Below, piece by piece: positions 18,001 through 21,000 of a stretch of DNA of 64,000 nucleotides (its first letter is position 1; each line of letters begins with the position of its first letter). The stretch is from NCBI RefSeq assembly GCF_054482525.1, contig NZ_CM137006.1; one strand, 5' to 3'. Position numbers: made by a program.

Positions 18001-21000
18001 ATACCGTTATTACTGAGGGTCACGCCTTCACTCGGCGAAACGCTGAGGGTTACCTGATGCAGGGGTACACCATTGCCGTAATTATCATTCACCGTAATGT
18101 ACAGAGCGGTATCCTCGCCTGCCAATTGTGTGTCATAAAGGGTATAAAGCGAGGTGAGATGTGCCGTAGACGCATCAGCGTCGACTTGAATGGACGTGCT
18201 AAGCGTGGAGCTACCATTTTCCAGGCTAGCTTCAATGGTATCCGGTCTCGCTCCTGTTTCTCTCGAGGAGCGGGTATTGGTATAAGTGACGGTAGCTTTA
18301 CCCTGTTCGTTCGTCACGGCTTGGCCGCCGTTCGTCATTTCGGCAGATTTTGTTCTGCTGGTAAAGCTCACAGTCACACCTTTTACCGGAAAGCCATTAT
18401 TATCAACGATTGTGGCGGTGATGACGCTGCCGGAGCTGTTCTGCGGGGTACCGGCGATTATGCGGTCTGGCACAGCCGTCAACTCGATAATTTTTGCCGC
18501 CGCTGTGTCGCCAATAAAATGCACAGTTTTGTTGTCGCTGGCACCATTATTAGCCAGTGATGCAGTGACCGTCTGCTCACCAAAGGCAACGCCTGCGAGA
18601 GAGGCCTGCGCGATGCCAGACTCATTGGTATTACTCACTCCCGGGGTCAGGGTGAGTCCTGAAGAGGCTGAGCTGAATGTTACCGGAAGATTGTTCACCT
18701 CATTGTCGAACTGATCTTTAACCGTTGCAGTTAGCGTTGCGTTATCGACGCCATTACCTGTGATCTCATCTTTTGACATCTGCAGGACAACCTGAGCCGA
18801 GGTTTTGTCCGCCACAAACGTTACCGGCTGCGAATCACTGGTATTGTTATTACCCAGCGTTGCGGTAACCGTATGCGTGCCCGCTTTTTTACCTTTGAGC
18901 GTGACATGCGCTTCGCCATTGGCCTGAGTGATGGCAATACCGTTATTTTCGAGGGTAAAGTCTGCCGCAACGTCCTGTGGCATGGTGAAGTTCACCGTTA
19001 TTCCCGCCACCGGATGATTCGACGGATCTTTCACCGTTGCCGTCAGCTGCACGCTGTCACTGTTATTCGTCACCACCTGTTGAGCAGGGATGTTCAGGGT
19101 GACCTGCGCGTTGCTGGCATCGGGCGCAATATTGACTGTCTTCGTATCGTTGTTGCCGTTAGGCAGTGTGGCTTCGGCCGTATGAACACCCAAAACCGTG
19201 CCCTTAAGGGTAACTTCAGCAACACCACTGTCGTTAGTATTGCTCGTGCTCTGACTAAGTTGAGTATCAGCCGGGTCGGTACTGAAGGTGACCGGTAGAT
19301 CTTTTACTACGTTATCAAAAGGATCTTTCACTGTTGCTGTCAGCGTCGTCTCATCCACGCCATTCCCAATGATTTCCGCTTTCGATGTTTGGAGGACGAC
19401 AATCGCGTTGTCCTTATCCGCCACGAATGTGACTGGCTGCGCATCGCTGGCATTATTGTTACCCAGCGTTGCGGTAACCGTATGCGTGCCCGCTTTTTTA
19501 CCTTTGAGCGTGACATGCGCTTCCCCATTGGCCTGGGTAATGGCAATGCCGTTATTTTCAAGGATAAAGTTTGCTGCCACGTCCTGTGGCATGGTGAAGT
19601 TCACCGTTATTCCCGCCACAGGATGATTCGACGGATCTTTCACCGTTGCCGTCAGCTGCACGCTGTTGCTGTTATTCGTCACCACCTGTTGAGCAGGGAT
19701 GTTCAGGGTGACCTGCGCGTTGCTGGTATCGGGCGCAATATTGACTGTCTTCGTATCGTTGTTGCCGTTAGGCAGTGTGGCTTCGGCTGTATGAACACCC
19801 AAAACCGTGCCCTTAAGGGTAACTTCAGCAACACCACTGTCGTTAGTATTGCTCGTGCTCTGACTAAGTTGAGTATCAGCCGGGTTAGTACTGAAGGTGA
19901 CCGGTAGATCTTTTACTACGTTATCAAAAGGATCTTTCACTGTTGCTGTCAGCGTTGTCTCATCCACGCCATTCCCAATGATTTCCGCTTTCGATGTTTG
20001 CAGAACGACAACTGCGCTGTCCTTATCCGCCACGAATGTGACTGGCTGCGCATCGCTGGCATTATTGTTACCCAGCGTTGCGGTAACCGTATGCGTGCCC
20101 GCTTTTTTGCCTTTGAGGGTGACATGCGCTTCGCCATTGGCCTGGGTAATGGCAATGCCGTTATTTTCAAGGGTAAAGTTTGCCGCCACGTCCTGTGGCA
20201 TGGTGAAGTTCACCGTTATTCCCGCCACCGGATGATTCGACGGATCTTTCACCGTCGCCGTCAGCTGCACGCTGTCACTGTTATTCGTCACCACCTGTTG
20301 AGCAGGGATATTCAGCGTGACCTGCGCGTTGCTGGCGTCGGGCGCAATATTGACTGTCTTCGTATCTCTATTGCCGTTAAGCAGTATGGCTTCGGCTGTA
20401 TGAACACCCAAAACCGTGCCCTTAAGGGTAACTTCAGCAATACCGTTCTCATTAGTATTACGCGTGTTCAGACTCAGTTGCGTGTCTGCGGGGGAGGTGC
20501 GGAAGACTACTGACAGATTTTTAACCACGTTATCAAAAGGATCTTTTACTGTTGCTGTCAGCGTCGTCTCATCCACGCCATTCCCAATGATTTCCGCTTT
20601 CGATGTTTGCAGAACGACAACTGCGCTGTCTTTATCCGCCACAAACGTCATTGGCTGTGTATCGCTGACATTGCTGTTAGCCAGACGAGCCGTGATCATA
20701 TGCGTGCCCGCTAACGTGCCGGTCAGGGAGGCGATTGCAACCCCGTTACTATCCGTCATGCCTTTTCCGCCGTTGCTAATCGAGAACCGACTTGCGACGT
20801 CGTTTGGCACAGTGAAGGTGATTTCTTTATCTTTTAGTGGGTTGCCATTTTTATCCTGCAAGGTTGCAGTCATATGTTGCGGAGCTGTGTTGGTGACGGT
20901 GATATCACCTGAAGGCACACTGAGGGTCAGGGCAGCAGTACTTTGATCACCGATAAAATTCACCTGTTGATTGGCCTGGGAACCAGAGCTCACAGAGGCC

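What the first reader, a model, noticed from the sequence alone, without database searches (positions are those of the whole stretch)
18680..20510. 609-bp near-identical tandem repeats expanding the yeeJ Big-domain array
Three near-identical 609-bp units (203 aa, two Ig-like domains each) plus a diverged fourth sit in the middle of yeeJ, giving a protein of about 2870 aa. Such repeats allow recombinational expansion and contraction of adhesin length, and will collapse in short-read assemblies. The antisense strand of the repeats carries long artefactual ORFs.
Basis: seen in the sequence. Interest (0 to 1): 0.35.

Follow-up and report, generated by a model that had tools for sequence, protein, structure and literature searches.

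The report
Three-copy domain repeat inside adhesin yeeJ
The E. coli surface adhesin gene yeeJ here carries three tandem copies of a 609-base module encoding two antibody-like domains; this is a real but uncommon length variant of a known polymorphism, made by unequal recombination, and is ordinary biology.

Summary
yeeJ (window 15135-23747, minus strand, 2870 aa) contains three in-frame 609-bp units, each 203 aa and two Big_1 Ig-like domains. The best boundaries are 18819-20645, about 135 nt right of the stated interval. The units are 90-95% identical, not near-identical, and the longest shared exact run is 97 nt. The "diverged fourth" is only a half-unit, about 56% identical at protein level.

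It is not an assembly artefact. The same three-unit structure occurs in 28 of 5,426 complete E. coli genomes, and the identical protein is encoded on 56 public contigs, mostly of draft size. So the predicted short-read collapse is not borne out.

Complete genomes form an allelic series:
- K-12: half a unit, a hybrid Ig domain (2358 aa).
- One unit: 2465 aa.
- Two units: about 2660 aa, the published "UMN026" long variant.
- Three units: 2870-2871 aa.
- No genome has four or five units.

Middle units are chimeras of the later and first units. Their crossover points differ between strains, and three-unit arrays occur in both deep yeeJ allele families. This indicates recurrent unequal recombination.

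The antisense ORFs are by-products of the repeat. This is a known kind of polymorphism, of low to moderate interest.

The parts
15135..23747 (-). yeeJ coding sequence: inverse autotransporter (type Ve) adhesin, 2870 aa
   Evidence: ORF found. RefSeq CDS in SCU-102 at the same coordinates. Pfam IAT_beta E=4.8e-113, 18 Big_1 stretches, Invasin_D3 and Invasin_D4.
20037..20645 (-). Repeat unit U1 (aa 1035-1237): Big_1 domain A plus Big_1 domain B; first-unit ('alpha') type
19428..20036 (-). Repeat unit U2 (aa 1238-1440): the extra unit, a chimera with a later-unit ('beta') 5' part and a first-unit-like 3' end
   Evidence: Site painting. It resembles U3 at nt 99-205 and 260-390 and U1 at nt 579-609; a U1-like patch at nt 459-501 is followed by two U3-like sites at nt 528 and 537.
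18819..19427 (-). Repeat unit U3 (aa 1441-1643): last-unit ('beta') type, with the terminal 3' signature at unit nt 579-609
18519..18818 (-). Diverged half-unit A4 (aa 1644-1743): one A-type Big domain, about 61% nt and 56% aa identical to the A domains of the units.
   Evidence: lag-609 identity of 0.5-0.77.
20646..20957 (-). Upstream neighbouring Big domain B0 (aa 931-1034), only about 39% aa identical to the B domains; marks the 5' edge of the array
20441..20526 (-). Divergent block (unit nt 120-205) that distinguishes the first unit (alpha) from later units (beta) in the sampled multi-unit alleles, except N3, whose middle unit also carries the alpha block; used as a marker for crossover mapping
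19389..19907 (+). Antisense ORF of 172 aa. It belongs to a periodic family with 18873-19298 and 19998-20513; a second family is 19288-19626, 19897-20235 and 20416-20946. Judged to be non-coding by-products of the repeat.
   Evidence: No Pfam match. Copies are 80% aa identical against 89% in the yeeJ frame over the same DNA.
24060..24135 (-). tRNA-Asn (asnT) immediately upstream of yeeJ; a synteny marker for the yeeJ locus
   Evidence: Martinez-Gil 2017 (PMC5595812) places yeeJ next to asnT.

Best explanation
The feature is a genuine in-frame tandem triplication of a 609-bp module (two Big_1 Ig-like domains, A+B) in the passenger (stalk) region of the inverse autotransporter adhesin YeeJ.

How it arose (inferred from sequence). 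A two-unit allele (alpha-beta) underwent unequal homologous recombination between misaligned units. This produced alpha-[beta 5'/alpha 3' chimera]-beta. The reciprocal kind of event removes units.

A polymorphic locus (shown by comparison). E. coli alleles carry 3, 2 or 1 units. K-12 carries half a unit, produced by a further 297-bp in-frame deletion between the equivalent 'LTATVKDP' positions of domains A and B, which leaves one hybrid Big_1 domain.

What it does (inferred from the known rod-like architecture of intimin and invasin passengers; not tested). Each unit adds two Ig-like domains to the rod that carries the C-terminal lectin-like tip away from the outer membrane. Copy number therefore sets adhesin reach, not binding chemistry.
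For: The array is real.
- Three units at 609-nt spacing.
- The same structure is found in 28 of 5,426 complete E. coli genomes. A synthetic 5-unit query ranks all three-unit genomes first, each with a record span of 3500-3501 nt.
- The identical protein is on 56 contigs.

Allelic series (gene lengths).
- 2358 aa in MG1655.
- 2465 aa in SHP24.
- 2660-2667 aa in O157 86-24, ST2747 and UID2309220033.
- 2870-2871 aa in the window, VCSW7, GF43, N3, GF60 and strain 1190.

Chimeric middle units with different switch points.
- NCTC9038: 35 consecutive U3-like sites (nt 3-205), then 28 U1-like sites (nt 240-609).
- N3: switch at nt 24-42.
- GF43: switch at nt 287-387.
- Strain 1190 (and, with more mosaic noise, the window): switch at nt 537-579.
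- VCSW7: switch at nt 595-597.
- The single unit of SHP24 is alpha at the 5' end and beta at the 3' end, the reciprocal product.

Spread and timing.
- Three-unit arrays occur in both deep yeeJ allele families, which are about 85% identical 3' of the array.
- Strain 1190 (3 units) and UID2309220033 (2 units) are 99.9% and 100% identical in the flanks. The first unit of the two-unit allele paints as U1 then U2 of the three-unit allele. Copy number therefore changes faster than point mutations accumulate.

K-12 junction. It lies in the shared GTGAAAGATCC, part of a 23-nt near-repeat at unit nt 85-107 and 382-404. The hybrid still matches Big_1 positions 2-90 of 93, E=1.4e-20.

Selection on the yeeJ frame. 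Between units, codons with synonymous changes outnumber those with non-synonymous changes: 21-35 against 9-19.
Against: - The mechanism is inferred from sequence mosaics only. RecA-dependent unequal crossing-over, RecA-independent slipped misalignment and gene conversion cannot be told apart.
- Several middle units (window, GF43, GF60, VCSW7) show extra short patches. This implies later gene conversion or unsampled parents, so the number of independent origins (at least 2, probably 4-5) is an estimate.
- The published comparison of the K-12 and two-unit variants found no difference in biofilm assays (PMC5595812). A functional effect of length is therefore unproven.
- The census covers complete RefSeq genomes only. 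It would miss arrays below about 90% identity to the query.
Confidence: 0.9

Rival explanations
1. Assembly artefact: the third unit was created, or the true number mis-estimated, by mis-assembly of a repeat.
For: Repeats longer than a read can be mis-assembled.
Against: The three units are distinguishable, with 30-61 differences per pair and a longest identical run of 97 nt. Twenty-eight independent complete genomes from different laboratories, hosts and countries have the same three-unit span. The identical 2870-aa protein is encoded on 56 contigs.
Confidence: 0.02
2. Single ancient origin: one three-unit allele arose once and was moved between strains by homologous recombination of the whole locus. 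Later gene conversion would then have created the different mosaics.
For: yeeJ is mosaic: the 5' 3.1 kb is 97-99.9% identical while the 3' part is about 85% between families. Allelic exchange therefore does occur here. Fifteen of the 28 three-unit genomes share one nearly identical allele. Extra patches in several middle units show that conversion happens.
Against: The crossover intervals are clean and do not overlap in several alleles: NCTC9038 at nt 205-240, N3 at nt 24-42, strain 1190 at nt 537-579. N3 duplicates the alpha block, whereas all the others duplicate the beta block. Each middle unit matches its own strain's flanking units, not the middle units of other strains, at most informative sites.
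Confidence: 0.07
3. The antisense ORFs within the repeats (141-176 aa) are real overlapping genes, and the repeat is maintained for them.
For: Long ORFs recur at 609-nt spacing on the + strand.
Against: They have no Pfam family. Their periodicity follows automatically from the repeat. Copies diverge more in this frame than in the yeeJ frame, 80% against 89% aa identity at 91% nt identity. Their start positions differ between copies.
Confidence: 0.01

Closest known systems
YeeJ length variants of Martinez-Gil et al. 2017 (PMC5595812): yeeJ-MG1655 (2358 aa) and yeeJ-UMN026 (+906 bp, three extra Big domains)
   Same: It is the same gene, at the same locus next to asnT. It has the same architecture: LysM, 12-stranded beta-barrel, Big-domain passenger and C-type lectin-like tip. 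[quoted passage not shown]
   Different: The window carries one more 609-bp unit than UMN026 (+1515 bp relative to K-12). The paper describes only two classes. Here there are four (half, 1, 2 and 3 units). The 906 bp resolves into one full unit (609) plus the 297 bp missing from the K-12 hybrid domain.
Tandem, nearly identical Ig-domain repeats in other inverse autotransporters, e.g. Yersinia ruckeri YrIlm/YrInv (Wrobel et al. 2018, as cited in PMC6714894)
   Same: In-frame tandem Big/Ig domain repeats in the passenger, which vary the length of the adhesin stalk. They are a recognised risk for mis-assembly.
   Different: The YeeJ units are two-domain modules that are 5-10% diverged. They therefore assemble correctly, and the recombination history can be read from the mosaics.
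Repeat-number variation in other E. coli autotransporter adhesins, e.g. UpaH (Allsopp et al., cited in PMC6714894 and PMC5595812)
   Same: Large internal repeats in a surface adhesin gene, with allelic length and sequence variation between strains.
   Different: UpaH is a classical type Va autotransporter with a beta-helix passenger, and its variants differ in biofilm phenotype. For YeeJ no phenotype difference has been found between the lengths tested.

Membership tests
Inverse autotransporter (type Ve secretion; intimin/invasin family) | N-terminal IAT beta-barrel translocator domain (PF11924) | tested here: met
   IAT_beta covers aa 153-428 of the query, E=4.8e-113, 377.8 bits against a cut-off of 22.3.
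Inverse autotransporter (type Ve secretion; intimin/invasin family) | C-terminal passenger built of serial Big_1 / Invasin_D3 Ig-like domains | tested here: met
   18 Big_1 and 19 Invasin_D3 stretches. Each 203-aa unit contains two Big_1 domains, at residues 10-99 and about 107-202.
Inverse autotransporter (type Ve secretion; intimin/invasin family) | Capping domain at the C-terminus (Invasin D4 / C-type lectin-like) | tested here: inconclusive
   Invasin_D4 scores 28.0 bits against a cut-off of 27, E=3.2e-6. The lectin-like fold of the last ~100 aa is taken from PMC5595812 and was not modelled here.
Inverse autotransporter (type Ve secretion; intimin/invasin family) | Periplasmic LysM domain and signal peptide at the N-terminus | not tested
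   The sequence shows a hydrophobic leader (…LTAGICLVTQLVFPMTVAAQG) and a LysM-like stretch (YTLGALESAQSVAERFGISLAELRKLNQF…). No LysM hit was listed at E<=0.001, and no signal-peptide predictor was run.
yeeJ orthologue (E. coli b1978) | Chromosomal position mtfA - asnT - yeeJ - (yeeL/GT9) - shiA - amn | tested here: met
   Annotation of the identical SCU-102 region; tRNA-Asn at 24060-24135.
yeeJ orthologue (E. coli b1978) | High sequence identity to K-12 yeeJ outside the variable array | tested here: met
   97.5% over the first 3102 nt and 84.6% over the part 3' of the array, which belongs to the other deep allele family. RefSeq names relatives 'inverse autotransporter adhesin YeeJ'.
Copy-number-variable tandem-repeat adhesin gene | Unit length is a multiple of 3 and the reading frame is kept across all copies | tested here: met
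   609 = 3 x 203; no internal stop in the 2870-aa product.
Copy-number-variable tandem-repeat adhesin gene | Different copy numbers among strains at the same locus, with recombinant junction units | tested here: met
   Half, 1, 2 and 3 units; chimeric middle units; none with 4 or 5 units.
Copy-number-variable tandem-repeat adhesin gene | Measurable switching of copy number within a clone (contingency-locus behaviour) | not testable with these tools
   There is only indirect evidence: strain 1190 (3 units) and UID2309220033 (2 units) have 99.9-100% identical flanks.

The most novel reading that the evidence does not exclude
Array length is a selectable dial, not neutral variation. On this reading, recurrent gain and loss of the two-domain module tunes how far the lectin-like tip of YeeJ projects past O-antigen or capsule. 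The rare three-unit form (28 of 2,925 yeeJ-positive complete genomes, arising several times in both allele families) would then mark lineages with thicker surface layers or particular hosts. The evidence here shows recurrence and recent change but says nothing about selection.
Probability: 0.15. Interest if true: 0.45.

Novelty: already known. Interest (0 to 1): 0.22.

Why it matters
This matters mainly for annotation and comparative genomics. yeeJ length differences between strains are real alleles, not errors, and they come in discrete steps of 203 aa. The K-12 reference gene is a contracted derivative containing a hybrid Ig domain, so it is a poor reference for presence/absence or variant calling in other lineages. 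The published two-variant PCR scheme would miss or misclassify the one-unit and three-unit alleles.

Biologically it is a clean natural example of unequal recombination resizing an adhesin stalk. No phenotype is yet tied to length.

Tried and rejected
- Tandem Repeats Finder found nothing in yeeJ because its longest period is 500. A lag-identity scan and the repeat finder were used instead.
- The full-length protein query to the search for homologous proteins failed internally.
- The N-terminal query returned 120 partial proteins. I first took these as evidence that contigs break in the array. Mapping their tails showed they are K-12-type proteins cut downstream of the array, so they say nothing about this repeat.
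- A census query of 2.5 units without flanks failed, because the search tool joins off-diagonal pieces.
- A 4-unit synthetic query showed only two-unit genomes in its top 60 rows, none with a 4110-nt span. The 5-unit and 7-unit designs worked.
- An ungapped comparison suggested three 3' allele families. A proper alignment showed only two; the third was an artefact of a 3-nt indel.
- I considered overlapping antisense genes and rejected them.
- I considered phase variation. There is no short homopolymer or promoter switch, and the evidence is only between strains.

Full report
**The observation**

The long ORF on the minus strand (15135-23822 from an upstream TTG; 15135-23747 from the annotated ATG) encodes 2870 aa. 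A scan of identity at a lag of 609 nt rises from a background of about 0.3 to 0.87-1.00 between about 18830 and 20000. The repeated stretch therefore runs from about 18830 to 20670, with shoulders of 0.5-0.77 on both sides. The repeat finder reports three copies at 609-nt spacing. Tandem Repeats Finder is blind to this array because its longest period is 500.

In the reading frame the units are:
- U1, aa 1035-1237, window 20645..20037.
- U2, aa 1238-1440, window 20036..19428.
- U3, aa 1441-1643, window 19427..18819.

The units are 91.8%, 90.0% and 95.1% identical in DNA, and the longest identical in-register run is 97 nt. "Near-identical" is therefore too strong.

The "diverged fourth" is a half-unit: one A-type domain (aa 1644-1743), about 56% identical in protein to the A domains. 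The domain upstream (aa 931-1034) is only about 39% identical to the B domains.

**What the gene and the unit are**

Pfam finds the inverse-autotransporter beta-barrel (E=4.8e-113), 18 Big_1 stretches, Invasin_D3 and a borderline Invasin_D4. The window is identical to E. coli SCU-102 over its first 25 kb, apart from one mismatch. RefSeq annotates that CDS at the same coordinates (2870 aa), between tRNA-Asn/mtfA and a GT9 gene, shiA and amn. This is the yeeJ locus described by Martinez-Gil et al. 2017 (PMC5595812). One 203-aa unit contains two Big_1 domains.

**Not an artefact**

A 3.5-kb query spanning the array matches 2,925 of 5,426 complete E. coli genomes. The record span of each match gives the number of units:
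- 3500-3501 nt: three units.
- 2891-2892 nt: two units.
- 2282 nt: one unit.
- 1985 nt: K-12 type.

I built a synthetic query with five units to separate these classes. The search tool joins partly overlapping pieces, so only three-unit genomes reach 100% coverage with this query and they rank first. Exactly 28 genomes do so, each with a span of 3500-3501 nt.

Synthetic four-unit and seven-unit queries, in which a four-unit allele would rank first, show no record with a 4110-nt span. The five-unit query shows none with a 4719-nt span. Three is therefore the maximum seen.

The identical 2870-aa protein is in NCBI on 56 contigs. The index places it in 37 blocks of the collection, and in 26 of these the longest contig carrying it is 10-200 kb. 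These sizes are typical of draft assemblies, so the array assembles correctly, as expected from its 5-10% divergence. The claim that it "will collapse in short-read assemblies" is not supported.

**The allelic series**

I extracted twelve alleles:

| Allele(s) | Length | Array content |
|---|---|---|
| MG1655 | 2358 aa | half a unit |
| SHP24 | 2465 aa | 1 unit |
| O157 86-24, ST2747, UID2309220033 | 2660-2667 aa | 2 units |
| window, strain 1190, VCSW7, GF43, N3, GF60 | 2870-2871 aa | 3 units |
| NCTC9038 | annotated as frameshifted | 3 units |

The K-12 "half unit" is a 104-aa hybrid: the first 36 aa of domain A fused to the last 68 aa of domain B. The junction lies in GTGAAAGATCC, part of a 23-nt near-repeat that encodes LTATVKDP in both domains. 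The hybrid still matches the whole Big_1 profile. The published "906-bp insertion" of the UMN026 variant is therefore one unit (609 bp) plus the 297 bp deleted in K-12.

**How the extra unit arose**

Across alleles the units carry positional signatures:
- First units carry an "alpha" version of unit nt 120-205.
- Last units carry the "beta" version plus a terminal signature at nt 579-609.
- Non-first units carry C and G at nt 3 and 15.

Unequal crossing-over between the second and first units of a two-unit allele predicts a middle unit that is beta at its 5' end and alpha-like at its 3' end. I painted each middle unit against its own strain's first and last units, and this is what appears:
- NCTC9038 is a clean single switch: 35 U3-like sites up to nt 205, then 28 U1-like sites from nt 240.
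- Strain 1190 switches at nt 537-579. The window's U2 has the same U1-like 3' end (nt 579-609), but also a U1-like patch at nt 459-501, so its switch point is less sharp.
- GF43 switches at nt 287-387.
- VCSW7 switches at nt 595-597.
- N3 switches at nt 24-42, so N3 has two alpha blocks where the others have two beta blocks.

The single unit of SHP24 is alpha at the 5' end and beta at the 3' end, the reciprocal product.

Three-unit arrays occur in both deep yeeJ allele families, which are about 85% identical 3' of the array.

Strain 1190 (3 units) and UID2309220033 (2 units) have flanks that are 99.9% and 100% identical. The first unit of the two-unit allele paints as U1 followed by the last three informative sites of U2 from the three-unit allele. 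This is compatible with a recent contraction, though it rests on only three linked sites.

Extra short patches in some middle units point to additional gene conversion. I estimate at least two, and probably four or five, independent expansions. Whether the events depend on RecA cannot be told from sequence.

**Function**

This part is inferred. Each unit adds two Ig-like domains to the rod that carries the lectin-like tip, so copy number changes reach and not binding chemistry. The only experimental comparison, K-12 against the two-unit variant, found no difference in biofilm formation (PMC5595812).

Between units, codons with synonymous changes outnumber those with non-synonymous changes, which is consistent with selection on the yeeJ frame.

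**Antisense ORFs**

Two families of + strand ORFs (112-176 aa) recur at the 609-nt period. They have no Pfam match. They are less conserved between copies than the yeeJ frame over the same DNA, 80% against 89%. They are by-products of the repeat.

**Comparison with what is known, and verdict**

yeeJ, its Big-domain passenger and the existence of length variants built from a repeated section are all published (PMC5595812, PMC6714894). Tandem Ig-domain repeats in inverse autotransporters are known from Yersinia ruckeri.

The additions here are modest:
- The repeat is a two-domain, 609-bp module.
- There are four size classes, not two.
- The three-unit class is rare (28 of 2,925 yeeJ-positive complete genomes) and recurrent.
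- The K-12 reference allele is a contracted form.

I found no paper describing the three-unit or one-unit alleles. The sequences are, however, already in RefSeq. The finding is correct, well explained and ordinary.

Noticed in passing
window 25127-25216 onward (to at least ~39 kb): The window is identical to strain SCU-102 up to 25173, with one mismatch. It then diverges inside tRNA-Ser(cga). The window carries a prophage there (integrase, exonuclease, YdaT-like toxin) with a four-tRNA cluster (Met, Lys, Thr, Gly) at 38523-38832. SCU-102 has zinT next instead.
   Followed up: partly
window ~955-8515: Integrase remnants (about 955-1645, frameshifted in the SCU-102 annotation), then an RHS element core protein (about 3729-7910) and a TPR protein (about 7967-8515), upstream of yeeN-amn-shiA.
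   Followed up: no
related genomes, e.g. NZ_CP017442.1 2039667-2043870 and NZ_CM167686.1: Several O157:H7 and related genomes have an IS3-family element (IS1203) inserted within the part of yeeJ covered by the 3.5-kb query (the array plus about 0.8-0.9 kb of flank on each side). The record span is 4203 nt instead of 2891, which splits the gene into two annotated CDSs.
   Followed up: no
public proteins P0001-P0120, mapped to window YeeJ aa ~1865-2130: Most of the 120 best N-terminal YeeJ matches are partial proteins of 1291-1628 aa. Where their C-terminal tails could be mapped, they are K-12-type alleles cut downstream of the 609-bp array, in another stretch of similar Big domains; many tails gave no mappable match. 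Many come from contigs of about 13.45 kb. The cause was not determined.
   Followed up: partly
yeeJ, window 15135-18818 versus 20646-23747: yeeJ is mosaic. The 5' 3.1 kb is 97-99.9% identical among all alleles sampled. The part 3' of the array splits into two deep families only about 85% identical: window/GF43/SHP24-like versus K-12/O157/ST2747-like. Local identity falls to about 61-78% near the 3' end.
   Followed up: partly
window 13511-14563 (+): An intact 350-aa glycosyltransferase family 9 gene lies between shiA and yeeJ, in the position of yeeL. From memory yeeL is a pseudogene in K-12; this was not checked here.
   Followed up: no
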